Part shown: piece after piece, positions 12,059 through 63,802 of the stretch | How positions within the stretch are numbered: position 1 is the stretch's first letter | Layout: the number at the start of each line of letters is the position of its first letter | NCBI GenBank assembly: GCA_965645245.1 | Contig: OZ287067.1 | Location: forward strand, 1,860,001-1,924,000 | Source of the DNA: Massalongia carnosa | Taxonomy: Eukaryota | Length of the DNA stretch: 64,000 nucleotides | Reading direction: 5' to 3' | Made by a program: the position numbers and the translations under genes | The notes under the pieces: model-generated | Databases searched by the model: none | What the model was told of the DNA's origin: nothing | The model's input: only the letters and a program-made list of their open reading frames with translations

Positions 12059-12554
12059 TATAAGAGGGACAGTAGACACTAGTCCTTATGGGTTATAATG
12101 CTCAGTATGACTGCTAATAGATTGGTAGGTGCTAAAGCTAAAAGCTGATTCCCTGAAGATGGGAATCGAGCTTTCTATATACCCCTTGGGGTCCTATTTA
12201 CAAACTACTTGTCTGGTTACCTCTCTGCCTTGTTGCCTTCAGCTGAGGTCTAGTAGATAGCCTTGCTGCCTTCAGCTGAGGTCTAGCAGATAACCTTGTT
12301 GCCTTCAGCTGAGGTCTAGCAGATAGCCTTGTTGCTTTCAGCTGAGGTCTCCTAGGCGTCCCAGGCCTCCCATGAGATCGAGGCTTATCTGAATAGCTTT
12401 AGTTGCTGCCTAACAAACTGGTAAGGCTGATTGCTGATGGCTTAGTATTGCTATCCGCCTTATCATGACTAAGCATCCGGATTATCAGTCACCCAGTCTT
12501 CTTGGGTGAGTCATCCCAGGAGCTAGCGCAGTCCTGTATTGCCGCGCTATTACA
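12059..12554. repeat. Solo LTR family Y (496 bp) with four internal 33-bp tandem repeats
   Basis: TSD TTTTG at 12054-12058 and 12555-12559. Empty site visible near 5267. Inverted copy at 18332-18828. Confidence 0.92.
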
Positions 12555-13479: not shown

Positions 13480-15621
13480 CCCTTCGTCTGGCAATTTGGC
13501 AGCTACCTTAAATAGGCTTAGTGAGATACCGTAGGGCTGAGTCGCGAACTTCTAAACATTCTCCCCTTTTTTTGTAAATAAGAAGGTAAACATCAATTGA
13601 AAATCATTAAAACATCTACAATTTCTTTAGAATAATCATGAGAGGCATTGAGATAGAAGTTCCTGACCAATCGGACGCTTTGCCCCCCTCAATTCTGAAA
13701 GAACAGGCCAAAAAGAATAAACCCAGCGTACAAAGCATAATTGACTCTATGCCCCCTCCGTCATCAAATTATTGCCCAATTTCGATCCCATTTCGAAAAC
13801 CACAGCCGGACGAGACGTTGCGCTTGATAAATCAGACTCCTTTCAGTTTATTCTGCCTCTTTTGTAGCTTTGAAATGCTTGAAATCATAGCTAAAAACAC
13901 CAATATTAAAGCGAAAAAGAAGTATACCCTAAACGACATCAAGAGACGTCAATGGCATGATACCTCTTCTTCTGAAGTAGGAGCTTTTCTGGGAATTCTG
14001 TTATATATGGGGTATACACTGATGCCACGTCTTACTGACTATTGGAACACATCTCCTAAATTTGCCATACATGACATGGTGATTTAAGCCATGAGTCTTC
14101 GAAGATGGGAGCAACTCAAGCGATTTTTGAAGATATCCAACCCCGACGAAGATGAGATCATTGATACTCGAGGCCCTGATTGGTGGAAAAAGCTGGAACC
14201 ATTGGCCACAGACTTTCGAAAAGCATCAAAGAAATACTGGATTCCTGGAAGTCATGTGTCAGTTGACGAGCAATTGATTTTATTCAGGGGTAGGAGCTGC
14301 CATACTATGCAAATAACCACCAAGGCGGCTGGTGTAGGCTTCAAAATCTATAGTTTATGTCAGGAAAATTATCTTTTTGACTTCTTATTTACCTACAAGG
14401 TGAGTAGAAAAGGCCTCAATTTGCATCGTACTAATTGCAAGACAGGTGTCCAAAATCAGTAAGTTAAAAACGCCTGGACAATTGAAATCTCCGACAACCA
14501 AATGGGATTTGTCTCCTTCCTCCCTAGTCGTCATTCAACTGGCTCGAAGTTTACCGTCTGATGAAGGCTTGAAATACGTCATCTTTCTGGACAACATCTT
14601 CACAAATACGAAGCTATTCAAAGCTCTGAAAACAATTGGAATTGGTGCCTGTGGGACGGCTAAATCAGGATGCGGTTTTCCTGTTGATCTGCCACGTCTG
14701 AGGGTTGCAGCCACCAAGAATAAGGACTGGGGAAAGAAGGCACTAATGACGGTACCTGCAAATAAAAATAATAAATCAAACATTGATGACGGGGACATTC
14801 TGTGTATAGCATGGGTGGATTTAAACACCGTGCAATTCATGACCACGGTTCATACAATTGAGGATTTGAAGACTTCTTTCTACAAGAATTCCCGTCGACG
14901 TCATAGAATTCCTGCAAATTCCAGAGTCATCGTTGATGATGAAGAAGAAAAGCTTCTATTTCCCATGCCCATCGTGGAATATAACCAGCACATGGGCGGG
15001 TCAGATGGGAATGCTCAGCAAAGAGCATATTATTCACCTCAAAGATCTAATCGTCGCTACTGGTGGTCAATTTTCATCTTTCTTCTGGATGCAGCCGTTC
15101 TAAATGCCTTCAAATTGTGGAGAATTCTGTATCCGAATTCAACACTCAGCCATTTGGACTTTCAAAAAGAAATAGTAAATGCCCTAATATCCAATCAAGC
15201 AGATGCCCTACGGAAACGTCCGACAGATGTCATAGTTACTACTAATCAAGACGTTAATAAAGACGTCGAGTCAACTTGCAAATGGGAGCATTTGAATAAG
15301 AAGGACTATTGTTTGGCCTGCAAAAGGCAAGTGCCAAGACTCAAACGACGCCGACCACTTGCGGAAATTGATGAAAATTGCACCAAAAGACGACGTGCAA
15401 GTCAGACCAGATGGCAATGTAAGAGCTGTGGACAATGTTGCAAAAAGGAGGCATGTTGGGAAATTTCACATAGATCATGAGGGGTGATTGAGGTGTTGTA
15501 CCAATTATCGTTGAAAAGGGAAAATCTGATTGGCCAGATTAAAGTTAATAGTCATTACCCGGAGACGGCGCGTGTAAAATTGAATATTACCTAAATGGCT
15601 GCCAAATTGCCAGACGAAGGG
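13480..15621 (+). mobile_element. piggyBac-type DNA transposon
   Basis: Perfect 24-bp TIR CCCTTCGTCTGGCAATTTGGCAGC at both ends. Absent from the paralogous site at ~6199. Confidence 0.93.
13638..15480 (+). pseudogene. piggyBac (DDE_Tnp_1_7-type) transposase with one intron (14400-14445) and one in-frame stop (14085-14087)
   Basis: VSVDEQLILFRGR, GFKIYSLC, IFLDNIFT, YNQHMGGSD and a C-terminal Cys-rich domain. The GTGAGT...ACTAAT...CAG intron joins the frames. Confidence 0.9.
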
Positions 15622-18331: not shown

Positions 18332-18828
18332 TGTAACAGCGCGGCAATACAGGACTGCGCTAGCTCCTGGGATGACTCACCCAAGAAGACCAGGTGACTG
18401 ATAATCCGGTTGCTTAGTCATGATAAGGCGGATAGCAATACTAAACCATCAGCAATCAGCCTTACAAGTTTGTTAGGCAGCAACTAAAGCTATTCAGATA
18501 AGCCTCGATCTCATGGGAGGCCTGGGACGCCTAGGAGACCTCAGCTGAAGGCAACAAGGCTATCTGCTAGACCTCAGCTGAAGGCAACAAGGTTATCTGC
18601 TAGACCTCAGCTGAAGGCAGCAAGGCTATCTACTAGACCTCAGCTGAAGGTAACAAGGCAGACAGGTAACCAGACAAGTAGTTTGTAAATAGGACCCCAA
18701 GGGGTATATAGAAAGCTCGATTCCCATCTTCAGGGAATCAACTTTTTAGCTTTAGCACCTACCAATCTATTAGCAGTCACACTGAGCATTATAACCCATA
18801 ATGACTAGTGTCTATTGTCCCTCTTATA
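18332..18828. repeat. Solo LTR family Y inside Gypsy-2
   Basis: Inverted copy of 12059-12554. TSD GTAAC/ATAAC. Confidence 0.9.
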
Positions 18829-53680: not shown

Positions 53681-56491
53681 CTATCTACGAAGCAGATCCT
53701 CTCCAGCGTCAATACGCTTAGAGATCTGATGTCCAGAGAGCCCCAAACTGTCAACTTCCCGCGCAATATCCCACGGATCCCTCCCCTGCTCATTCGCCTT
53801 CCCCTGAAGGTACCGACGGATCCGTCTCTTGACGTAGAACCGCTGCCTCAGGGCAGGAGTGTACCTCCACTTAGCCCCAAAGAGGCGGTCCAACTCGTCG
53901 AGAGATGCACGCTGGACCCCCTCCACCAACGTCCCCAACGCGAATTCCTCCAACACCGCCTCCGCCGAGGTCACGCCGCCGAGAATGGGCTCCGCCGGGC
54001 AGCCAGGAGGACGTTGAGGCGGCCCCTCTTGGGGGAGGGAGCCACAGGGCGCAGAGACCGTAGACGTCTCTCCGGGGACGGAAGTGAGGACGACAGAAGG
54101 TGTAGGAAGGAGAGAAGCGACTGCGTCGACGTACGAGGACGCCGACGCAGCAGGCTCTTCACCAACGGAGTGCGCCGCCGTCGCAAGAGCAGTCGCCTGC
54201 CCTCGCCAAGAAGCCTCGTCCAGCAGCCAGTCCCTCCGAACAGCCTCCACAGGAACCGTCAGAAAGGATCGAAGCAGCGTCGAGACCGTGGCCTGCAATT
54301 GTGAGAGCTGCGAACCCAGGACTCGAGCTATCTCCTGGGCATTTGCCGCCGGCAGCGCACTCAAGGTGGTCGTCAGCTGGCTCTGCCCGGAGAGCAACCT
54401 CTCCACAGCGTTGAGCGTGCGATCTTGCTTAATTGCAACACCGCTGACCTTGTTACTGACGCCATCAACGGAGTCAGTAACAAGAGGCAGCACGCCGTGG
54501 ATGGCCACGTGCAAAGGTTCCTTTTCTACAGCCTCCAACTCCCGTATCTTCGCCGCGAACGCAGGCCAAAGGGGATCTCTGAAGACTTGGTGTCTCCAGA
54601 GCGAAAGCTCAGGAAACTGAGGCTGTAGAAGCGCCGCGTCTTGCAGGAAGACACAACGCAGCCGCAGCAACATCTCCAGAACCTTCTTCCCTGCCTTATC
54701 CGCATCAGGAAAAAGACCGCCTTTGTACGCCGCCAGAGCGTCATCCACCCAAGGCCACACCTGCCGCTGCAGGGCCAGATCCGGTGAGTGTCCTCTTCTC
54801 AAAAAGTAACTCCCGGGGGAGTTGCCAAAGCCGGCGGCGCGACGCATGTAGACACGCGGCAGGCGAGTGAGGTAGTTAGTGGCCCAGACGCCACGTTCCC
54901 ATCCGCCTGCTCTCATGATCTGTAGTAGTTGATATAAGGGTAACGCTAGTAAGTATAAGGGGCCATGAATCGTAGAGTACTTACCTGGTCCGCGGGGACT
55001 TCCCACATGTCGGCCAGCCGTGACGAGGACTGCCGCATGGTGTGGACCGTCTTGGAGCTGTCGACGCCGACAGCATCCAAAGCCGGCTTGATCCATCGGG
55101 CCTGTGTTTTGTCGGAGATCTCCTCCTTAGATCGCGCCAGGCTCCCGGAGATGACCTTCCTTCGTGAAATACCACTAAGATCGATCCCGGAAGTCCGGCC
55201 GCTTCTCCAGGAGGAGGTCCTAGCACAAGACGAGCCAGTGGGCGAGGGCGCCGAGAGGACAAAGGACGACATCTCTGCTCCGCAAAGCACCATAGTAATG
55301 CTGGCGGCGCGAGTTGCCCCCGTCCGCCAGAGGAATGCTCTTGCCCTAGCCAATTCGAAGGATCAACGCAAGGCATTCGGACCCCTCGTTAGGGAGGTCG
55401 TAGGCGCAGAGGTCAGATAGCTCAGCCCTCCGCGTTGACTCCCCCCGCAGCATCATCGAATGCATTAGGAGGAAGTCGAGGCTAGTCCGCAGGAGGTGCC
55501 ACTCGCCGCCCGCCACGCCCTCCTCCCCCAAAACCTTGCCCCCGGCGAGCAGCATTGCCGAAAATTGAGCGGCCTGCTCAATCGTGTAGCCGTCGGTGAG
55601 GCCGTGGATCGCGCGATCCTCGAACGAGGCCCGTTTGAAAGCGCTCCAATCGATGCGTAAGCGCGTCATCAGGGCTTTGGTGGCTTTCCCTCTGGGATGG
55701 GGCACCACCAAATTCTTTTCGAGATGCTGGCCATCGAAGAGGGCGCAGAGGGCAGAGACGTAGCCCGATTCCACGCTATCGGGCGCCAGGGGCCGGGATA
55801 AAGGGTCGTCGGCTTGCTGCAAGACGAGTCAGTAAGCTACAAAAAGATGATTCTATCCCTGAATTCGAGTTCAGGGGCCGACTCACCGTCTCAACGAGCT
55901 CCTCGCCGTCGGAGAATTCCTCGAATTTTTCCACCTCCTCCAGCTCCTCTCCCTCTACCGCTGGCGAGGCTTCCACCGCCTCCATCGCCTTCCCCTTCCC
56001 CCTCTTCAACGCGCGGCGCTTAGCCTGCCGTTGGCGATCCTGATCCCGCCGCCTGGCCTGCGCTGCTGCGCCTGTGAACTTGGGACGTGGGACGAAGCGC
56101 AGGCGGAGGACGACCTCTTCGAGGAAGAGGAGCATCTTCCGCTCCCACACAAGGACGCCGTCAAGAAAATTGCGCCGTCGGCACCACTTCTGTAGGATGT
56201 TAGCGTAGGCCCAAAGTTGCAGGGCATACCTATCGTAGTCACCTCCCACAGATGCCAGCACCTGCGGTACGCCTTAAGGGTGTTGGCCCTCCGATCCTCC
56301 TCCCGCATCCCGCGGACGCGCCTCATGGTGGCGGCCATGGCGGCCTCGTTGTTGCCGTGGGTGGCATAGGCCTGAGACTCACGCTTGACGGCCTCGACAT
56401 CAACGTAAGCCTCAGGAGGAGGCCAAGAAAGAGGCGCCGCCGTCTCCGGATCTGCGACAGCGGGGCCTGCAGCGGAGGGGCCCGGGTCCAT
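53681..56491 (-). pseudogene. CryptonF-type tyrosine recombinase (Ndc10 domain II-like, probable C-terminal GCR1_C-like domain); three introns (56242-56190, 55886-55817, 54984-54920), premature stops and a frameshift
   Basis: NTLKAY, SGYVSALCAL, EDRA...DGYT, LRTSLDFLLMHSMMLRGES (catalytic R), CPLGALA, SKTVHTMR (HxxR), RAGGW and NYL (catalytic Y), MRRAAGF, VFLQDAALL and ELDRLFGAKWR. TAG at 55348-55346 and a frame change near 55160. Confidence 0.9.
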
Positions 56492-57068
56492 CGTGCGGCC
56501 GCCAAAGAGGGTATCCGTGGTATGTAGAACGCTCGTTGACCAGCAAGTCGCTCGCGGCGCAAAACGGGGACAGGCAGGCTTTTTGCAGTTCGACTGAATG
56601 GGTCGAGGAGAGAAAATCGTGGTATGGAGCTTGGTCACGGGCGATATTGTCCATACAGCGTGACGATTTTGCAGGGTCACGCCTATAAGTCGGTTTATAC
56701 CCCAAAGTCACAGGCGATAAGTCCACTTTTCGAAGGACCGCCAAGCCAGCATTTTTTACGCTAAATCTCAACCCCGCGGCCCCGAAAAAAAAATCGGCCT
56801 CGGATAAGCGATCTTGAGGGCTAGCTATGTGAAAATTCGCCGAAGTTGCCGTGAACTATAGATTTCGGAATTTTTGATTAATGGAAGTTCCTTCCTTCGG
56901 ATCCCCAAGTGGGGGAGGATGTACGAGCATGAAAAGGGGTGTACGACCACTGAAAGGATGGGAGGAATTAGTTATGGATTACGGGATTCTTTATACAAAT
57001 AATACATTAGTTGGACTTTTTAAGACCAGTTATTAGACCAGCTTGCCATGATATTATCCATTCGTCAT

Positions 57069-57146
57069 GATCGGTCCTCCTCCTTCTACACCATCGGTCC
57101 TCCTCCTTCTACACCATTGGTCCTCCTTCTACACCATCGGTCCTCA
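57069..57146. repeat. Short tandem repeat, ~20-23-bp unit CATCGGTCCTCCTCCTTCTACAC, about 3.5 copies
   Basis: Directly visible. Confidence 0.9.
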
Positions 57147-57229
57147 CCACGGAGACGCCAAAGGCCTCACCGTGGGGCGACCGTCAAACATATAGATTTG
57201 CTCCTATTTCTTCGCATCAAAACAATGCT

Positions 57230-58860
57230 AATTTAACGCGTTCACACGCGTCGCAGACGTACGTACGGAAGAGGATACGAAGGCCAACCGCCGGGGGGTA
57301 GAATGCGCGCGTCCCTGCACCATGCTTCTAAGGGTTCAAGTGCCTTCATGCAGTCATCAGCTGGAAGAAGATGTGGACCAAAGGAGCCGCATCATCCCCC
57401 ACCCGGGCACAGTCGACACGCGTTCTAGCTCCTGAGAGTTCAAGTCTCCCCATGCAGTCATCAGCTGGGATCAACAGAACGCGTAAAGGCACCGGGGCGA
57501 ATGCTGTCACCTCAAGAAAACTCCATCTCGGAGCAGAATAACAATATCCCATTTAATAGGCCTGGCCTGTTAAATAAAATCGAGGAAAACACAGAGTCAC
57601 AAAACACATAGTCATCAATCACACGTTGTACAAAGCACACAGTCACAAACATACAGTCACAAACACACAGTCAAAAACACACAGTCACAAAACACACAGT
57701 CACAAAAAACACAGTCACAAATCAATAACACGTCCCTGTGAAGGGGGTTCTGCGGGGGCTCGTTAAGACAGATCTGCACCCCGTTAATATCGGAGTACAT
57801 ATTTTTAGAGGTTCAAGTCCTTTCTAGCAGTCATCAGCTGAAAATAATGTATTTGGACACGGGCATGGTGTGGATTTGACACGGGTAGACCTCGATGGAT
57901 CACAAAACGAATGAAAAGAGTTCAGCGGAACTTCGTTAATATTGTTCTCGAAGACCTCGTTAATAAGATTTTCATAGACCTCGTTAACAACGTTCGGTCA
58001 TACTCTTAAAGGTTCAAGTCCTTTCATGCAGTCATCGGCTGAGAGCTAAAGACGTACGACACGGGTCAGCTATGTCTATCACACGGGTCTCCTTCGTCTA
58101 CAACACGGAGCCCTCCGGCTGAAAGAAATAAAACATATAGACACATAGTGTAGGGTTACACCCTACACGATACAAGGGATTTGGGTTATGAAAACCATCC
58201 GATTGATGGCTACCGTGAGCAACACGGCCCGAACCGGAGTCGTACCGGGGATGGTGGAGGCAACCTAGTCATCAAATAGGAAACCCTTGGGACAAGAAGA
58301 GGGCAATATACGAGGAACCCGTTAATTGATAACAGTCTAGGCCCTGAGCTAATAGACGAATTTCAAACGAGCACCCCTCCGAGTTGTCCTCGACTCGTTT
58401 TGGTTAGTAGGGACGGAAAATCGATACTATACTGCCTGGTCAGGAGCATAGTGGTCGAAATCCCTGCGAGACATGGTCGGTTCATAAACGGGAGACCTTT
58501 ATGAATAACGCGAAGTGGGCGTAAAAAACCCGTGAGGCGTGGTATGCAATGGCGGCCACCGTACGGAGACCGTCTGCATAGCCCGAGAGGACAGTATGCG
58601 CATGTCGGTATATATAGAGCAGGGAATGTCTATCTCGCTCGTAACGAGACCCCGTCGGTTCGCCGGCGCATGGGCTACGGCTAGACTCGCCCTTGATATA
58701 TGCTTAAGGAGTAAACTGGGTTTGACCTGGGCGAAAGGGACGTCGTTCACCCCAATCGTAGAATTCATCAATAGTCTTGGGCCGTAAAACGCACCAGTGA
58801 GATGAACGAAAACTGGGATAGAGACTTCACGAAGGAGATGTCAACTCTATTTTATCATTC
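57230..58860 (+). ncRNA. Putative large modular structured RNA of unknown family (boundaries approximate)
   Basis: Four covarying T-loop three-way junctions, two long rods rich in G-U pairs on the + strand, many GNRA/UUCG-capped hairpins, and no credible ORF. Folded by eye only; transcription not shown. Confidence 0.6.
57586..57723. repeat. AC-rich ~14-bp tandem repeat (AAAACACACAGTCAC), about 9 degenerate copies
   Basis: Directly visible. Confidence 0.9.
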
Positions 58861-58862
58861 TT

Positions 58863-61523
58863 AGCCCTTCTGGAACGAGCGTTGCGCTGTCGCTGTGGCG
58901 GAGACTCGGCGTCGAAGACGCGAGTGGACGAGGTGGAAGACAGAGGCAACGTGGCGCAGGTATCTCAAATCGGCGGATGAAAAGAAGAAGATCATCACCA
59001 AGGAGAAGAAGCTCGACTTCAGAAGAACCTTAGCAGAGATGACGTCTGCGTCCGAAGGCATATGGCGTCTTGCCCGATGGGCTCGTACGCGCAGTCACTT
59101 ACCGCGAGACATTCCCAAGGTGCCCGATCTGACGCACACGCTTGCGGACGGCACAGCAGTCACTGCGTCCACATTCGACGAAAAGACGTCTCTTCTCTCT
59201 GACATGTTCTTCCCCAATGCAACCGCGGCAGACCTCAGCGACACGACGACGTATCGCTACCCTCCCGCTGTCGCAGAAACGGAGTCTCTTATCACAGGCG
59301 AGGAGATAGAGGCAGCAATCAAGCGTTGTAAGCCGGACTCTGCTCCGGGCCCCGACGGAATACCGAATAGAATACTCAAGCTTCTGATCAAGTCGATACT
59401 GCCCACGTTGGTCCTTCTATTTCGCGCCTGCGCAGAGCAGGGGTATCACCCACTCTGCTTTCGCGAGGCTCACACTATTGCAATCAAGAAGCCGAACAAG
59501 CCGAACTACACTCTCGCTAAGGCCTATAGACCTATCGCGCTTCTGAATACGCTTGGGAAGGTCTTGGAATCGATCATAGCTAAACGCATCGCCGCTATTG
59601 CGGAGACCCACAATCTGCTTCCTGAGTCTCAGATGGGAGGATGACGACAAAGATCCTGTGAAACGGCGCTTGAACTCCTCACCGAACAGATACACACGGT
59701 GTGGAACATGGGGTCAGACAAAGTGGCCACGCTTTTGAGCATTGATGTGGCCGGTGCCTTTGATCACGTCTCGGCGGAGAGAATGCTGCACAATCTGCGC
59801 AAGAGAAAAATTCCTGAATGGATCGTAGCATGGGTCGGCAGCTTTTTACAGCAAAGAAGGTCCACACTGACAATCGGCGGTCAGACGTCTTCGATGCGCC
59901 TTGTTCATGCCGGTATACCGCAGGGGTCGCCAGTGTCGCCCATTCTCTACATTTTTTACAACGCAGATATTTTGGAGGAGCTAGAGCGATCTCGACTCAA
60001 AGTCACCGCGTTGGGGTTTATTGACGACATCAATATACTGGCATACGGCACCTCGACTGCGAGTAATTGTCGAGCTTTAGAACGTGCTCACGAGATGTGC
60101 GAGCTGTGGGCTAGACGTCATGGAGCGCACTTCGCGCCTGCTAAATACGAGCTCCTACATCTCGCCAGAAATGATCGTCGCTTCGACATGACGGCTGCCG
60201 TGTCCATAGGAGGCGTGGACAAGACGCCTTCGCCGTCGGTGCGAGTGCTTGGAATTCAGATCGACTCCAAGCTTAAATGGGGCCCTCATCTAAAGTTCAT
60301 ACAGGGCAAAATGGCTACACAGACCTTGGCATTATCCAGGCTTACGGCTTCTACGTGGGGAGCGTGCTTTACGAAGGCGAGACACGTTTATAGCGCCGTC
60401 GTGCAACCGGCGATTACCTTCGGCTCTACCGTCTGGCATTCGCCATATGGCCGTCCCGACGGCACGCAGAGGATCGACAAACAGCTCGGTGACATACAGC
60501 GAGAGTGTCTGCGAGTGATAAGCGGAGGATTTCGCGCTACTCCGCAAATCATCATCGAAGCCGAAACTCACGTTTCTCCAATTCAGCTGCATCTAGCTCA
60601 CTTGCAGGCGAAGGCACGACGACGTCTTAAAGAACATGAACACGATCAACGCATCTCCGCTTTCTGTGAGAAGATCAAGCGCAAGCTGACTGCCTCGCGT
60701 GGTAGACGACGGCGCGCCTTCAACGCTACGCCGGCTCAGCGTAAGCGTGACTGGTATACGAGGCAGATTGCTCGAGTCCGGCCTGCTGACATGATAGAGG
60801 ACTCTCCGACGGACAGAGGGCTAGCCAAGATCTTCAACAATCAGTGGAAGCAGACCTGGAGCGCGTATCAGGCGGCTCATCAGCGTCATCCCTGCGCTGC
60901 GCTTACTGAGGGTCTTTCGATAAAGAGACTGGGATTACATAAGAACTTCTGCAAATCCGAAAGCAGCCTCATCATTCAAATGCGTACTGAGCGTATTGGC
61001 TTGGCGGATTATCTCTTCTCTCGTCGAGTTCCCACGTTCGCTTCGCCGGCGTGTAGCTGTGGATGGGCACGCCAGACGCTCAAGCATGTGCTACTCAGCT
61101 GCCCCAGGTTTGTTAACGGCCGAAGCAACATGTGCAGAGACGCCGGAACGACGGATTATCGCCGCCTTCTGACCACCGAAAAGGGCTTACGAGCCTCCGC
61201 TCGCTGGCTTATGCGGACTAATCTACTGACACAGTTTTCGCTAGCTGTAGAGTGTCTTTCTTCCTCCCCCTAACTGTCGCGTAGTGATAGTCACAAACTC
61301 TAGTTATAACAGAGGCAGAAGGTAGTCTCTTGATACGCATGTCGTAGACGTGGCGCTGGCGAAACGTAGCATTCGCGAAGTGAGGTCGAGCGATCACGTG
61401 TAGGTATACAGATGAAGGTTTTTTCCCCTCGATGAGGGTTTTCCTTCTTTGAAACTTTGATAGCTTTTCTCGCATGGGTCGGCTGTAGCTGATGTCACAA
61501 CGAGTATGAATTTAATAATAATA
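58863..61523 (+). mobile_element. 5'-truncated Tad-like LINE (non-LTR retrotransposon) with (TAA)n tail
   Basis: ORF2 begins mid-gene (PFWNERC...). It contains APGPDGIPN, YRPIALLNTLGK, GIPQGSPVSP, FIDD and the C-terminal CSCG...HVLLSC. One in-frame TGA at 59642-59644; ORF ends at 61273. Tail TAATAATAATA. Confidence 0.93.
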
Positions 61524-63802
61524 CAGTCAAACCTTCCTATAACGATAGGGTTTGTCCACGCCGGCCAATCGTTATAGCCAGATTATCGTTATAGCCAGAA
61601 TATATTATTTATAAGTTAAACATAACGGTTATGTGTGATGATGAGATTCATAGACCTAAGAATCTATATAGCATGAAAATAAGTCTGAATAGACTGTTGC
61701 TGCAACTCCTGTGTGCCTCTGCCTCTGATATCCCGTCGATAACGTGTCAAACACCGCAAAACCTCGCTGTTACCGTTGTCTTGTTGCTCCTCGTAGAGAC
61801 AGTCTATTCAAAGCAGTAATAGCTTCTGCACTGCTCACTTTTGCCATCATCTCTTGCTCCTCATCTGTCTCATGGTCTCGTTCAATCAAAGGGTGACTAT
61901 AACTGTCCAGAATCTGTTCAAATATCTCCTCCTCGTTGTCTTCCACCACCTCATCCACGAGATCCAAGAAATGATCTATCTTCATCGCCTCTGTGATGTG
62001 ATTTTTGTCTTGTAGAGTCCGTATTGTAGCGTCCATCTGCTTGATCATCTCTCGCTGCTTGACATCATCTGCATCAGACTGCTCCTTCCACCCCAATTGT
62101 ATAGCCACACTTTCCGAAACAGGTCCGTACTTTGGACCCAAAACTTTGGATTTCAACCAGCAATTGGCAATTGTAGTAGAAGAAACGTCTTCTTGCCAAG
62201 CAGCTACACTCCATCGAAGAGCTTGTAGAATATGAATTGACTTTAACGGATCGCGATCCAAATCATATTCCGAACAGATGTAATTCAACCAATGTCGACG
62301 ATAATGAGCTTTAAAGGCCTTGATGATGCCTTGATCAAGAGGTTGACAGACGCTTGTGGCGTTGGCAGGTAAGAAAAGTACCTAAAAAGTTGATTAATCG
62401 ACGCTCTTGAAAATACACATCAGTCTAACGTACCTTGACGTTGTTCAGAGCAGTTTCATCTGCTTCTAAAAGCTTCAATCCGGCGTGATGGGATGAAAAC
62501 CCATCTACTAGAAGCACTACATTGCGATCTGCGGTCAAAGCGTTGAACCATAGAAGATACTCTTTGAATATCTTGCCAGTCATCCATGCTTTTTTGTTAT
62601 GACGCCAAGTCATCGGTAGGTTTTCTATCTTGACGCCAGATCGAGCAAAACAGCGAGGCTTTGCTGCCGTTCCAATAAACCAGGGATCCATCTTGTGACC
62701 CACGACATTACAACAAAGATTGATGGTGATTCTAGACTTATTCAACTTAACACCAGCTGAATCAGACACTGCCAAGGTACGATCCGGCGTCATTTTCCAG
62801 TATAGAGCTGATTCGTCCATGTTATAGATGTCTTCATTAGGATACGACTTTAGTTCTTCCCTGAGATCCACGAGTTCAAGCTCCACTGTTGCTTGATCTA
62901 CCGCAGCAGCTTCGCCATGACGAACTACTCTATGAATCTTATACCGCTTCTTGAAGCCGTCCAACCAGCCTGTTGGGAATTTGGGCTCCTCAACGCCTTG
63001 ATATTGCGGCATTCGAGCCCAGAATCTTTTGGCCATGGCCTTCAATATATCACCTGTTATGGTGGCATGCTTGAGCTCCTGTTTCTGCTGCCATTCGTAC
63101 AACGCCATCTCCAGATCTTCCCAATTTGCTGGCTGTCTCTTCTTTGATTGCGGATGAATGAGTCTTGAATCATCCAGATGATCATACTGATGAGACAAAC
63201 AGACAGAAACCGTGGATTGAGACAGCTTACGACCAAACTGATTTAGAAACCAGGCTATTAAGGAGTTGGAATTGGGCTTGGGATGATCCGCCTGATTATA
63301 GTGAGCTCGCAAGGCCTTTCTCTCAGCGTCAGTAATAGCTCGTCGTCGCTTGACGCAGGCGGAGGAGCTAATAGGTCTATTCAAGATGGACGACATGATG
63401 TTGTGAATACTCGGCGAATATCTTGGAAGTAGGAGGCTAGGTTATCAAATGGTAATACAACAAACGGGAACGACTTGGCTAATCAGCTTAACCAGAGCTT
63501 GATTTGTGACTGCTTATACTACTACCTCTAGTAAAGAGTGATTCTATGAAAATATAGCAGAATAGGCTCCCTATATATATACCTATCAAAAAACTACACT
63601 GCATTATTTAAGTAGGAAGTTCGGTCGAGGTGCAACCTGGCTTCTATGTATAACGATACCCTACAAAAATTTTGAGATTTACTAACGATATCGTAATAGG
63701 GAGATTATCGTTATTTTGCACCTAAAATTGCCGGATTTCTCCAACCAATCGTTGTGGAGCGATTATCGTTATAACCAAAATCGTTATAGGAAGGTTTGAC
63801 TG
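61524..63802 (-). mobile_element. pogo/Tc5 (Tigger/CENP-B-like) DNA transposon
   Basis: Perfect 23-bp TIR CAGTCAAACCTTCCTATAACGAT and TA TSD. Inserted in the LINE TAA tail. Confidence 0.96.
61664..63396 (-). pseudogene. DDE_1 transposase with Abp1/CENP-B-like HTH domains; intron 62433-62382; probable C-terminal frameshift near 61800
   Basis: GWLDGFKKRY, HGEA, IYNMDESALYW, KKAWMT, LLVDGFSSH and FLPANATSVCQPLDQGII. Confidence 0.88.

What the first reader, a model, noticed from the sequence alone, without database searches (positions are those of the whole stretch)
57737..58123. Two long rods with a five-times-repeated YYCGT-TAA / AC-ACGGR internal-loop module and + strand G-U bias
Seen: rod A (57737-57904) pairs TGTGA/TCACA, GCTCGT/ACGGGT, CAGATCTGCAC/GTGTGGATTTG (11 bp, 3 G-U), CCCGT/ACGGG and GAGTACAT/ATGTATTT. 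Rod B (57921-58123) pairs TTCAGC/GCTGAA, CTTCGT/ACGGAG, CGAAG/CTTCG, AGACC(T)CGT/ACGGGTCT, CATAG/CTATG and GACC(T)CGT/ACGGGTC. Each rod is capped by a T-loop junction. Every CGT/ACG helix is followed by TAA opposite AC (2 times in rod A, 3 times in rod B) at ~21-24-nt spacing. Non-Watson-Crick pairs are mostly G-T on +, whereas neutral decay or RIP of a DNA palindrome should give G-T and A-C about equally. Inference: a + strand RNA with arrayed, roughly phased protein-binding or docking sites.
Basis: partly seen in the sequence, partly recalled or inferred. Interest (0 to 1): 0.8.

Follow-up and report, generated by a model that had tools for sequence, protein, structure and literature searches.

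The report
Structured leader RNA of fungal LINE
The two hairpin rods are real, evolutionarily conserved RNA-folding units inside a 1.8-kb non-coding leader that is fused to a truncated fungal jumping gene (a LINE), a rarely studied kind of hitch-hiking element whose RNA architecture has apparently not been described.

Summary
Rods A and B, their T-loop caps and the five CGT-TAA/AC-ACGG loops sit at the stated coordinates. Single-sequence folding energy is unremarkable (z -1.7 and -1.4).

Related sequences decide the matter. A search with the cap pattern found 40 metagenome loci. In 81 distinct units the variable stems covary (84.6% of cells paired, against at most 47% when partners are slid). 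The cap and the loop module are conserved and occur almost only on one strand.

The rods are units 3 and 4 of four capped hairpins in a discrete 1.8-kb non-coding leader (57070-58866). The leader is fused to a 5'-truncated LINE (58867-61273). In other copies the leader keeps the same 5' and 3' ends but joins the LINE at many different positions. This is the architecture of the MINE (WEIRD-MGL) chimeras of Magnaporthe.

The cap is a three-way junction with a tRNA-type T-arm (GUUCAAGUC). The loop fits the UA_handle sequence signature (UAA/GAN-like).

The plus-strand structured RNA is well supported. Its proposed role, as docking sites for proteins or other RNA that help the leader use the LINE machinery, is inference. 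The G-U bias is strong in rod A but weak across the family. Homology to WEIRD could not be tested.

The parts
57070..58866 (+). Whole non-coding leader module (WEIRD-like), 1797 nt, with discrete 5' and 3' ends
   Evidence: Contigs of three other coded organisms match up to 57069/57070 and up to 58866/58867, then run into unrelated sequence. The same fixed ends are seen in a related clade, at L022:812/813 and 2591/2592. Junction alignment.
57070..57145 (+). 23-nt tandem repeats at the leader's 5' end (3.4 copies)
   Evidence: Tandem Repeats Finder. Similar C/T-rich tandem repeats open the leader in L009. Copy number varies among copies (joints and loose ends).
57293..57401 (+). Capped hairpin unit 1 (cap 57330-57363). 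It has no UAA/AC module, and this copy has a broken T-arm pair
   Evidence: G57342 is C in essentially all other copies, which restores the G-C closing pair of the T-loop.
57412..57492 (+). Capped hairpin unit 2 (cap 57434-57467). ACGCGT-type stem
   Evidence: Covariance-model hit, 44.2 bits, E 1.2e-7. Fold.
57586..57721 (+). 15-nt tandem repeat AAAACACACAGTCAC (9.2 copies) between units 2 and 3
   Evidence: Length varies in other copies, with a 15-nt insertion in X7.
57737..57904 (+). Rod A = capped hairpin unit 3, with two UAA/GAC modules
   Evidence: Covariance-model hit 57774-57872, 81.9 bits.
57807..57840 (+). Cap of rod A: T-arm AGAGG-UUCAAGU-CCUUU, linker CUAG, mini-hairpin CAGU-CAUCA-GCUG
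   Evidence: T-stem covariation and the invariant mini-hairpin.
57759..57787 (+). Rod A, 5' strands of the two modules (CTCGTTAA, CCCGTTAA)
57857..57885 (+). Rod A, 3' strands of the two modules (G-ACACGGG twice)
57921..58123 (+). Rod B = capped hairpin unit 4, with three modules
   Evidence: Covariance-model hit 57972-58074, 79.7 bits. The arms are tandem repeats of 24 and 22 nt.
58008..58041 (+). Cap of rod B: AAAGG-UUCAAGU-CCUUU, linker CAUG, CAGU-CAUCG-GCUG
57932..57987 (+). Rod B, 5' strands of three modules (TTCGTTAA, CTCGTTAA, CTCGTTAA)
58059..58109 (+). Rod B, 3' strands of three modules (ACACGGG twice, ACACGGA once)
58140..58300 (+). Conserved leader block 1
   Evidence: blastn matches of 71-76% identity in many loci.
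58395..58640 (+). Conserved leader block 2, a structured RNA core
   Evidence: 12-locus alignment with 75% mean identity. 59 consensus pairs, 25 of them with compensatory changes.
58680..58780 (+). Conserved leader block 3
58867..61273 (+). 5'-truncated non-LTR (LINE) ORF2 remnant: RT and C-terminal region, with a frameshift near 59644
   Evidence: RVT_1 in both reading-frame pieces. ORF listing. No endonuclease domain is left in this copy.

Best explanation
SHOWN. Rods A and B are the third and fourth of four 'capped hairpin' repeat units in a discrete 1.8-kb non-coding leader (57070-58866). The leader is fused, on the same strand, to a 5'-truncated LINE (58867-61273). The whole thing is a non-autonomous chimeric retroelement of the MINE (WEIRD-MGL) type.

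Each unit is a stem of free sequence closed by a conserved three-way junction. The junction has a 5-bp T-arm with a tRNA-type T-loop (G-UUCAAGU-C), a 4-nt linker and an invariant CAGU-CAUCA-GCUG mini-hairpin. The stem carries 0 to 3 copies of a conserved asymmetric internal loop, 5'-YCGU|UAAKAY...RAC|ACGGR-3'. Selection keeps these units paired at the RNA level on the + strand. The rest of the leader is also a conserved, covarying RNA.

INFERRED (mechanism). The T-loops and the UAA/RAC loops are docking modules. They fit the sequence signatures of the T-loop and of the UA_handle (UAA/GAN-like), motifs that in solved RNAs make long-range RNA-RNA contacts or bind ligands. The T-arm also fits the GUUCNANNC hairpin that Pus4/TRUB1 recognises.

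Arrayed about two helical turns apart, the modules would fold or oligomerise the leader, or load proteins on one helical face. The result would be a compact particle that stays with the LINE machinery. The LINE reverse transcriptase could then jump from LINE RNA onto the leader's fixed 3' end (...UURGCC). Chimeric transcripts that carry the leader would also be copied in trans.
For: Structure and conservation
- The cap occurs 4 times in the window, with 0 expected.
- A collection scan with the cap pattern gave 40 loci. Their flanks also carry the CGTTAA and ACACGG motifs.
- In a structure-blind MAFFT alignment of 16 units, 87.3% of cells pair, against 31-48% when partners are slid. 18 of 31 pairs have changes on both sides, and 67 cells show double changes against 23.2 +/- 5.1 in shuffles. 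RNAalifold independently finds the T-arm with three AU/GC-swapping pairs and the CUCGU/ACGGG helix.
- The covariance model finds 104 units (81 distinct) in 38 sources, always on one strand within a locus. On that alignment 84.6% of cells pair against at most 47.1% when slid, and 26 of 31 pairs covary.
- 73 of 81 distinct units keep GTTCNANNC.

Strand
- The conserved U.G pairs are UG 60 against CG 5, and UG 75 of 78.
- YGTTAA occurs 115 times sense and 10 antisense. ACACRGG occurs 87 and 0 times.
- For rod A the mirrored - strand structure is 13.4 kcal/mol worse.

Context
- A LINE ORF2 lies downstream on the same strand in 16 of 16 loci that have a tblastn hit (of 40 searched), starting at at least 12 different ORF2 positions.
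- An endonuclease domain follows the leader in L007. ORF1-type zinc knuckles follow it in L029.
- The leader ends are fixed.
- Multi-module rods recur in other clades: L001/L022, L007, L034, L040.
- Block 2 covaries, with 25 of 59 pairs showing compensatory changes. It is about 75% identical in nucleotides between elements whose RT is only 23-51% identical in protein.

Known analogue
- MINE is a full-length 1.1-kb non-coding WEIRD RNA fused to variably 5'-truncated MGL LINE. It is expressed, has no solo copy, and has a GCC*A/U junction rule (PMC2104539; abstract, passages and section 9 read).
- Here 14 of 17 junctions continue ...TTRG with C. In 2 of the 3 testable cases the lost LINE sequence ends in AGCC.

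Motif grammar
- The UA_handle is 5'XU/AN(n)X3'. T-loops are always involved in long-range contacts or ligand binding, and a T-loop can recognise a UGA/gAN-type loop (PMC2615604, passages).
- GUUCNANNC is the Pus4/TRUB1 hairpin motif (PMC5340967, passages).
Against: - Single-sequence folding is not better than shuffles, and rod B's minimum-energy fold is lower on the - strand (-57.6 against -51.9).
- A strand-symmetric arm-against-arm comparison of 32 units shows no + strand G-U excess (104 against 120). In the structural alignment the excess is only 36 against 22 outside the two conserved U.G pairs.
- The 104-unit alignment is fitted to the model. The units are paralogous repeats, so the shuffle controls overstate significance. 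The slid-partner control is the fairer one.
- The 3' strand of the loop is RAC (purine in 40 of 49 contexts, G in only 17 of 49). It is G in 3 of 5 loops in the window. It is therefore not a textbook GAN.
- No partner protein or RNA has been identified, and no three-dimensional or experimental evidence exists.
- No target-site duplication was found for this copy.
- Homology of the leader to WEIRD itself is untested.
- How a free leader RNA with a defined 3' end would arise is unknown.
Confidence: 0.6

Rival explanations
1. DNA-level role. The units are tandem promoter 'monomers' of the leader, like the monomers of the mouse L1 5' UTR, or arrays of B-box-like sites (GGTTCAAGTCC) that recruit TFIIIC as an insulator or targeting mark. 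On this view the hairpin potential is secondary.
For: - The T-loop sequence resembles the internal B box of tRNA genes (recalled consensus, not tested).
- Unit number varies between copies: 1 to 3 or more 183-nt units, and deletion joints between caps.
- The leader also carries tandem repeats, a TATA-like ATATAGA and ACGCGT motifs near its 5' end.
- A retroelement needs an internal promoter.
Against: - A DNA site does not need 25-30 bp of flanking stem whose two arms change together (18 of 31 and 26 of 31 pairs with double changes).
- The outer T-stem pairs swap AU and GC while keeping the pairing.
- Conserved U.G pairs make sense only in RNA.
- T runs inside the rods (TTTTT at 57802-06) would stop RNA polymerase III.
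Confidence: 0.12
2. RNA processing signal. Each cap is a small self-cleaving ribozyme, or a tRNA-like handle for RNase P or tRNase Z, that trims the leader or releases it from chimeric transcripts.
For: - There is an invariant 11-14-nt stretch (GCAGUCAUCAGCUG) next to a T-arm.
- Retroelements often carry ribozymes at their 5' ends (recalled: HDV-like ribozymes in R2 and L1Tc, hammerheads in Penelope-like elements).
- The - strand reads CUGAUGA.
- The leader has a precise 3' end that needs some explanation.
Against: - Rfam gave no match at gathering scores over the window, and none to any ribozyme family at E up to 10 over 56700-59000.
- On the - strand the hammerhead GAAA box is not conserved (AUGAAGG and AUGGGGA in units 1 and 2). 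Only 6 nt separate CUGAUGA from it, so helix II cannot form.
- ARAGORN finds no tRNA.
- The caps lie 0.8-1.5 kb from the leader's 3' end and are repeated 2-6 times. That does not fit a signal that defines an RNA end.
Confidence: 0.08
3. Relic of a tRNA-derived SINE head or tRNA fragment that was captured into the leader and then duplicated. The conservation would reflect recent copying, not function.
For: - The T-arm is indistinguishable from a tRNA T-arm in sequence signature.
- In Magnaporthe a SINE (Mg-SINE) is found inside WEIRD-LINE chimeras (PMC2104539).
- The copies are high-copy repeats: 3728 contigs were laid in run X1.
Against: - The units are kept in clades whose LINE proteins are only 23-51% identical, with compensatory changes. 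This is long-term selection, not recent copying.
- No other tRNA part (acceptor, D or anticodon arm) is present.
- The mini-hairpin and the UAA/RAC loops have no tRNA counterpart.
Confidence: 0.07
4. Decaying DNA palindromes or a foldback/MITE insertion unrelated to the LINE, with the mismatches left by RIP-type transitions.
For: - Some degenerate units show C-to-T runs, such as GGTTTAAGTCC and GTAGTTATTAG.
- The arm-against-arm comparison gives equal numbers of G.T and A.C.
Against: - The internal loops and the cap are asymmetric and conserved in the same orientation. They are not mirror-image decay: ACACRGG occurs 87 times sense and 0 antisense.
- The units always lie inside the leader, upstream of the same conserved blocks.
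- The stems covary.
Confidence: 0.03

Closest known systems
MINE elements (WEIRD RNA fused to the MGL LINE) of Magnaporthe grisea/oryzae. Gogvadze et al. 2007, PMC2104539: abstract, passages and section 9 read. Fudal et al. 2005: recalled, not seen.
   Same: - A non-coding 5' part of fixed length and fixed 3' end, fused in sense to LINE tails truncated at many different points.
- The chimeras themselves are multi-copy.
- The junction shows a short GCC-type rule. MINE has GCC*A/U. Here 14 of 17 junctions read ...TTRG-C, and 2 of the 3 testable lost LINE ends are AGCC.
   Different: - The leader here is 1.8 kb (1.1 kb in MINE).
- It occurs in many divergent fungi from metagenomes, whereas WEIRD was reported to have no relatives in other genomes.
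- Its RNA structure (capped hairpins, UAA/RAC loops, covarying core) is described here, while none was described for WEIRD in the text I read.
- Sequence homology to WEIRD could not be tested. The supplements are unreadable .doc files, and no fungal genome collection is on hand.
tRNA T-arm / T-loop motif, and the Pus4/TRUB1 hairpin substrates (GUUCNANNC). PMC2615604 and PMC5340967, passages read.
   Same: A 5-bp stem, a 7-nt loop UUCAAGU, a closing G-C pair that is invariant in the 16-unit alignment (16 of 16) and 77 of 78 across distinct units, and a U54/A58-type UA_handle signature. The motif is kept in 73 of 81 units.
   Different: It is not part of a tRNA. There is no cloverleaf. It sits in a three-way junction with a rod and a CAGU-CAUCA-GCUG mini-hairpin. 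Modification or docking has not been shown.
UA_handle / UAA-GAN internal loop. Jaeger et al. 2009, PMC2615604, passages read. Lee, Gutell and Russell 2006: cited there, not seen.
   Same: The 5' strand is ...U|UAA and the 3' strand is RAC|A.... This gives 5'-XU/ANX-3' stacked on a Watson-Crick U-A pair, flanked by helices on both sides. Motifs of this kind act as receptors for long-range contacts.
   Different: The first base of the 3' strand is G in only 17 of 49 contexts (A in 23). The 5' strand has 5-6 unpaired bases, not 3. No structure is available.
SINEs and other non-autonomous LINE partners; U6-L1 chimeric retrogenes of mammals (the latter as described in PMC2104539).
   Same: A non-coding RNA head joined to a LINE-derived tail that the LINE machinery copies in trans. 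Formation by template switching of the reverse transcriptase.
   Different: The head is over 1 kb and highly structured. It is not a known cellular RNA (no Rfam match). It appears to exist only in fused form.
Tandem monomers of the mouse L1 5' UTR (recalled).
   Same: Repeated units of variable number at the 5' end of a LINE-type element.
   Different: Here the units are RNA hairpins under pairing selection, not only promoter repeats.

Membership tests
MINE/WEIRD-type chimeric LINE retroelement | Non-coding 5' part with a constant 3' end, fused to LINE tails truncated at variable positions | tested here: met
   The leader ends at L022:2591/2592 in all copies of one clade, which then diverge. 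It ends at 58866/7 in three other organisms. LINE entry occurs at at least 12 ORF2 positions plus ORF1 and the inter-ORF region.
MINE/WEIRD-type chimeric LINE retroelement | 5' part and LINE part on the same strand | tested here: met
   16 of 16 loci with a LINE hit, of 40 searched. All 104 units are co-oriented within each locus.
MINE/WEIRD-type chimeric LINE retroelement | Whole chimera flanked by 10-20 bp target-site duplications | tested here: inconclusive
   No repeat longer than 7 nt links 57030-57075 with 61270-61900. The LINE 3' end of this copy is not defined.
MINE/WEIRD-type chimeric LINE retroelement | Sequence homology of the 5' part to Magnaporthe WEIRD | not testable with these tools
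   The WEIRD sequence is not in the paper's text. The supplements are unreadable, and no fungal genome collection is available.
MINE/WEIRD-type chimeric LINE retroelement | Junction consensus GCC*A/U in the LINE template | tested here: inconclusive
   2 of the 3 testable entry sites are preceded by AGCC in longer copies, and the third by AAG. 14 of 17 junctions start with C after ...TTRG. The numbers are small.
tRNA or tRNA-like structure | Cloverleaf with acceptor, D, anticodon and T arms | tested here: not met
   ARAGORN finds 0 genes in the window. Rfam gives no tRNA or tRNA-like match. Only the T-arm signature is present.
T-loop motif | G-UUCRANN-C loop closed by a G-C pair on a covarying stem | tested here: met
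   GC in 16 of 16 and 77 of 78 for the closing pair. Three or four stem pairs swap AU and GC.
T-loop motif | U54-A58 reverse-Hoogsteen pair, U-turn and an intercalated partner base (three-dimensional features) | not testable with these tools
   No RNA 3D prediction or probing is available.
UAA/GAN internal loop | UAA on one strand | tested here: met
   5 of 5 loops in the rods. YGTTAA occurs 115 times on the sense strand in 33 loci.
UAA/GAN internal loop | GAN on the opposite strand | tested here: inconclusive
   GAC in 3 of 5, AAC in 1 and CAC in 1 in the window. In the family G occurs 17 times, A 23, T 6 and C 3 out of 49.
Hammerhead ribozyme (- strand CUGAUGA) | CUGAUGA, helix II, GAAA, helix III and a cleavage triplet | tested here: not met
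   No helix II is possible, since only 6 nt lie between the boxes. GAAA is not conserved in units 1 and 2. No Rfam match at E up to 10.
Any Rfam family | Match to a curated covariance model | tested here: not met
   0 matches at gathering score in 64 kb. Only three weak, unrelated matches over 56700-59000.

The most novel reading that the evidence does not exclude
The leader is a previously unrecognised family of large (1-1.8 kb) structured RNAs, widespread in filamentous fungi, that exists only as a passenger fused to LINE tails.

Its arrays of T-loop caps and UAA/RAC receptor-like loops would make specific RNA-RNA contacts, within one molecule or between molecules. These contacts would build a compact particle, or a multimeric one.

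That particle would place the leader's GCC 3' end at the LINE reverse transcriptase, so the enzyme jumps onto it. On this reading the RNA has evolved to be the preferred template-switch acceptor, a 5'-end counterpart of a SINE. This would also explain the long-unexplained WEIRD RNA of the rice blast fungus.
Probability: 0.25. Interest if true: 0.85.

Novelty: new variant of a known kind. Interest (0 to 1): 0.64.

Why it matters
Chimeras of a mysterious non-coding RNA (WEIRD) with LINE tails were described in one fungus in 2005-2007. That RNA was reported to have no relatives and no known function.

This window shows the same architecture in a different, high-copy family, and the cap pattern retrieved relatives from many metagenomes. 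The leader is more conserved than the LINE protein next to it. It is full of covarying helices and is built from recognisable RNA docking motifs.

This turns an oddity into a testable class: a structured RNA that parasitises LINE reverse transcription from the 5' side. It offers defined mutants (caps, UAA/RAC loops, the GCC end) for studying template switching by LINE enzymes. It also provides a covariance model with which the family can be annotated in fungal genomes.

Tried and rejected
- Hammerhead reading of the - strand (CUGAUGA...GAAA). Rejected: no helix II, and GAAA is not conserved.
- Rfam at gathering and E-value thresholds, and ARAGORN: nothing.
- Own-genome search: no genome is held for this window. 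The records behind the loci are not held either.
- Viral contigs with the cap pattern: 0.
- Earlier findings of this scan by place, sequence (twice) and words: nothing relevant.
- Sequencing runs: no RNA holder listed, so expression could not be examined.
- Contigs of 4 runs were laid. They gave the leader boundaries and variants but no strand or expression information.
- Short probes taken from the loose ends behind 58866 did not map into the window's LINE (0, 2 chance-level and 0 matches). The entry points of those copies could not be placed.
- Target-site duplication search: only 7-mers.
- Splicing (SpIRE-like) origin of the junctions was considered because 3 of 3 testable entry sites are preceded by AG and one has TACTAAC 27 nt upstream. 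It ranks below template switching for four reasons: none of 17 junctions is followed by GT; one acceptor would be GAG; the shared bases extend to GCC; and this matches the published MINE rule. It is not excluded.
- Strand-symmetric arm alignment as a G-U test. It is noisy because the loops are forced into the alignment, so the structural alignment was used as well.
- Literature: the cap sequence as text gave 0 papers. The terms 'WEIRD, MGL, LINE, chimeric' and 'Mixed Interspersed Nuclear' gave only PMC2104539. Li and Breaker 2017 (PMC5640933) has no transposon-linked motif by term search. The 2026 ribozyme-screen preprint has nothing on T-loops or fungal LINEs in the passages seen.
- The supplements of PMC2104539 (element sequences, primers) could not be read. 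They may hold the WEIRD sequence that would settle homology.
- Not used, because they were not needed for the question: protein homology searches, structure prediction and complex prediction.
Full report
**1. What is in the sequence**

RNAfold gives rod A as the minimum-energy structure on the + strand (-50.2 kcal/mol). For rod B the full rod costs -51.6 against a minimum-energy fold of -51.9.

Both rods end in the same about 34-nt cap. A 31-nt pattern of that cap occurs four times in the 64-kb window, all on +, at 57333, 57437, 57810 and 58011, with none expected by chance.

The loop module is also real. Six of the window's 11 YYCGTTAA sites and five of its 11 ACACGGR sites lie in 57759-58325, all on +. 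They are spaced 21-24 nt apart.

**2. Is it more than chance?**

By folding energy it is not. The z-scores are -1.73 and -1.43 on + (8 and 19 of 200 shuffles fold as well) and -1.00 and -1.96 on -. Rod B's minimum-energy fold is even lower on the - strand.

The G-U claim holds locally. Rod A has 12 G-U pairs and no A.C 1x1 mismatch, and it loses 13.4 kcal/mol when mirrored onto the - strand. Rod B has 5 G-U and 1 A.C and loses 2.5 kcal/mol.

**3. Relatives**

No genome is held for the window. Pfam shows a transposon-rich fungal nuclear region containing a Fungal_trans factor, aconitase, BRO1 and DnaJ, plus Ty3-, copia-, pogo- and piggyBac-like genes.

A scan of metagenome contigs with the cap pattern returned 40 loci. 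The flanks of the caps, which were not part of the query, carry the same ...CUCGUUAAUAC... on the left and ...CAACACGGGC... on the right. Rods with two modules recur in other clades, namely L001/L022, L007, L034 and L040.

Of 78 units with full flanks, 32 remained after removing near-duplicates. Seventeen of these have a recognisable module. I aligned 16 of the 17 with MAFFT, leaving out L007:1462-1574, which has a long insertion.

RNAalifold finds the CUCGU/ACGGG helix (C-G in 9, U-A in 4) and a 5-bp T-stem with three pairs that swap AU and GC. With a hand-drawn structure on the same alignment:
- 87.3% of cells pair, against 31-48% when partners are slid.
- 18 of 31 pairs have changes on both sides.
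- 67 cells show double changes, against 23.2 +/- 5.1 in shuffles.

A covariance model built from this alignment finds 104 units (81 distinct) in the window and 37 loci. L020, L021 and L037 were left out because they overlap other loci. Hits are always on one strand within a locus. On that model-fitted alignment 84.6% of cells pair, against at most 47.1% when slid, and 26 of 31 pairs covary.

**4. Anatomy of a unit**

The cap is a three-way junction made of:
- the rod;
- a 5-bp T-arm with loop UUCAAGU, closed by a G-C pair that is invariant in the 16-unit alignment and 77 of 78 across distinct units;
- a 4-nt linker;
- an invariant mini-hairpin CAGU-CAUCA-GCUG.

73 of 81 distinct units keep GUUCNANNC.

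The module is 5'-YCGU|UAAKAY...RAC|ACGGR-3'. The U-A pair followed by U on one strand, and A-N on the other, is the UA_handle signature 5'XU/AN(n)X3'. UAA opposite RAC is close to the UAA/GAN loop (PMC2615604, passages). However, the first base is G in only 17 of 49 family contexts (A in 23) and in 3 of 5 loops in the window.

**5. Which strand?**

Several lines point to the + strand:
- Two U.G pairs are conserved (UG 60 against CG 5, and UG 75 of 78). On the - strand they would be A.C mismatches.
- YGTTAA occurs 115 times sense and 10 antisense. ACACRGG occurs 87 and 0 times. This count covers 33 loci (81.2 kb); seven overlapping or duplicate loci were dropped.

A general G-U excess is weak. 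It is 66 against 22 in the 16-unit alignment, but only 36 against 22 without the two conserved pairs. A crude strand-symmetric arm-against-arm alignment gives 104 against 120.

**6. Context: what the rods belong to**

Downstream of the units, three blocks (58140-58300, 58400-58632, 58680-58780) are conserved in the same order in most loci. Block 2, aligned in 12 loci, is 75% identical with long invariant stretches. It folds into 59 consensus pairs, 25 of them with compensatory changes. The whole region is therefore a large structured RNA.

It is followed, on the same strand, by a LINE:
- The window has an RT-bearing ORF2 remnant at 58867-61273.
- tblastn finds the LINE downstream in 16 of 16 loci with a hit (of 40 searched), starting at at least 12 different ORF2 positions.
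- L007 continues into the endonuclease domain.
- L029 continues into ORF1-type zinc knuckles.

In one clade all copies share the same first base (L022:812/813) and the same last base (2591/2592), and then diverge.

Laying contigs of four coded runs on 57000-58900 bounds the window's leader at 57070 and 58866/7. Different sequence lies beyond these points in three organisms. The family is high-copy there, with 3728 contigs laid in X1. The same call shows that G57342, which breaks the T-loop closing pair of unit 1, is private to this copy; the other copies have C.

**7. Comparison with what is known**

This is the architecture of the MINE elements of Magnaporthe: a full-length 1.1-kb non-coding, expressed RNA of unknown function (WEIRD) fused to variably 5'-truncated MGL LINE. 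WEIRD has no solo gene and, in 2007, had no relatives in other genomes. The chimeras were explained by template switching of the LINE reverse transcriptase at GCC*A/U sites (PMC2104539; abstract, passages and section 9 read).

Here the leader ends ...UURG. In 14 of 17 junctions the next base is C, and the contigs share the window's sequence through ...TTAGCC. For the three entry sites that a longer copy spans, the lost LINE sequence ends AGCC, AGCC and AAG. This fits 1-3 nt of GCC-type microhomology with the leader's 3' end, and it fits the published rule.

A splicing origin is less likely: none of the 17 junctions shows GT after the leader, and one acceptor would be GAG. It is not excluded.

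Whether the leader is homologous to WEIRD could not be tested. The element sequences are in .doc supplements that cannot be read, and no fungal collection is available.

I found no description of the cap, the module or a structured LINE leader in fungi. The searches were those, and the Rfam scans.

**8. How it most likely works**

Shown: + strand RNA hairpins under pairing selection, with conserved cap and loop motifs, as repeat units of a discrete leader of a chimeric LINE element.

Inferred: T-loops in solved RNAs always make long-range contacts or bind ligands, and they can recognise UGA/gAN-type loops. The T-arm also fits the hairpin that Pus4/TRUB1 recognises. I therefore read the caps and UAA/RAC loops as docking modules for RNA-RNA contacts, proteins or both. 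Modules spaced about two helical turns apart would lie on one face of the rod.

Their likely benefit to the element is a compact, stable particle that stays with the LINE machinery. The reverse transcriptase would then jump onto the leader's 3' end, and transcripts bearing the leader would be copied in trans. The leader's nucleotide conservation (about 75%) next to RT proteins that are only 23-51% identical argues that the RNA itself is under strong selection.

No partner, structure or expression data support the functional step.

**9. Rivals**

- DNA-level promoter monomers or B-box arrays. This fits the variable unit number, but it cannot explain the compensatory stem changes or the conserved U.G pairs.
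- Ribozyme or RNase P/Z handles. There is no Rfam match, no hammerhead core, and the position is wrong for defining an RNA end.
- A tRNA or SINE relic. The T-arm may well have such an origin, but it is maintained across deep clades.
- Decaying palindromes. These are contradicted by the conserved asymmetry.

**10. Verdict**

It is unproven on binding and incomplete on context. The element is a new, widespread variant of the MINE/WEIRD kind with a newly described RNA architecture.

Noticed in passing
Junctions leader|LINE: window 58864-58867; L001, L002, L007-L009, L014-L017, L022, L024, L025, L029, L031, L038, L040: The leader always ends ...YTTRG, and in 14 of 17 junctions the next base is C. 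For the 3 entry sites that a longer copy spans, the lost LINE sequence ends AGCC, AGCC and AAG, and one has TACTAAC 27 nt upstream. This fits GCC-type microhomology, as in the published MINE rule. A splicing origin is not fully excluded.
   Followed up: partly
window 58395-58640 (and 58140-58300, 58680-58780): The downstream part of the leader is a strongly conserved, covarying RNA core (75% identity in 12 loci; 25 of 59 pairs compensatory). It has long invariant single-stranded stretches such as GGUAACGCGAAG and GAGAGGACAGU, and no Rfam match. It may deserve study in its own right, possibly as a catalytic or scaffold RNA.
   Followed up: partly
L009:721-800, L023 (- strand) 540-460, window 58318-58325: Between blocks 1 and 2 the soil-clade leaders carry a capless hairpin with two nested UAA/AC modules. 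The window keeps only one left half (CCCGTTAA at 58318), so this part is degenerate here.
   Followed up: no
window 57342 and 57855: Two bases are private to this copy. G57342 breaks the T-loop closing pair of unit 1, and essentially all other copies have C. At 57855 this copy has G where the other copies have T.
   Followed up: yes
L015:1649-1751, L018:79-181, L031:1283-1385, L001:1794-1904: Degenerate units show runs of C-to-T changes (GGTTTAAGTCC, GTAGTTATTAG), as RIP-type mutation of repeats would give.
   Followed up: no
window 53681-56680 (-): Directly upstream, on the other strand, lies a long reading frame with NDC10_II and GCR1_C domains. This is the domain pair recalled for Crypton-type tyrosine-recombinase transposons of fungi. 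No link to the leader was found.
   Followed up: no
window 12227-12350 and 18536-18659: Two 33-nt tandem arrays (3.8 copies each) are reverse complements of each other and lie 6.3 kb apart around a DDE_Tnp_1_7 (piggyBac-like) transposase frame at 14446-15480. They are probably the subterminal inverted repeat arrays of a DNA transposon.
   Followed up: no
window 57237-57262; L009:270-300; stems of units 1-2 and of L005, L007, L008, L010: ACGCGT (an MluI-type palindrome) recurs near the leader's 5' end and inside the stems of the units that lack the UAA/AC module (23 of 81 distinct units).
   Followed up: no
window 57324/57998, 57774/57898, 58115/58289 (joints in run X1): Some copies in another run lack whole units or parts of rods, for example a cap-to-cap deletion of 673 nt. 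Unit number is therefore polymorphic within the family.
   Followed up: no
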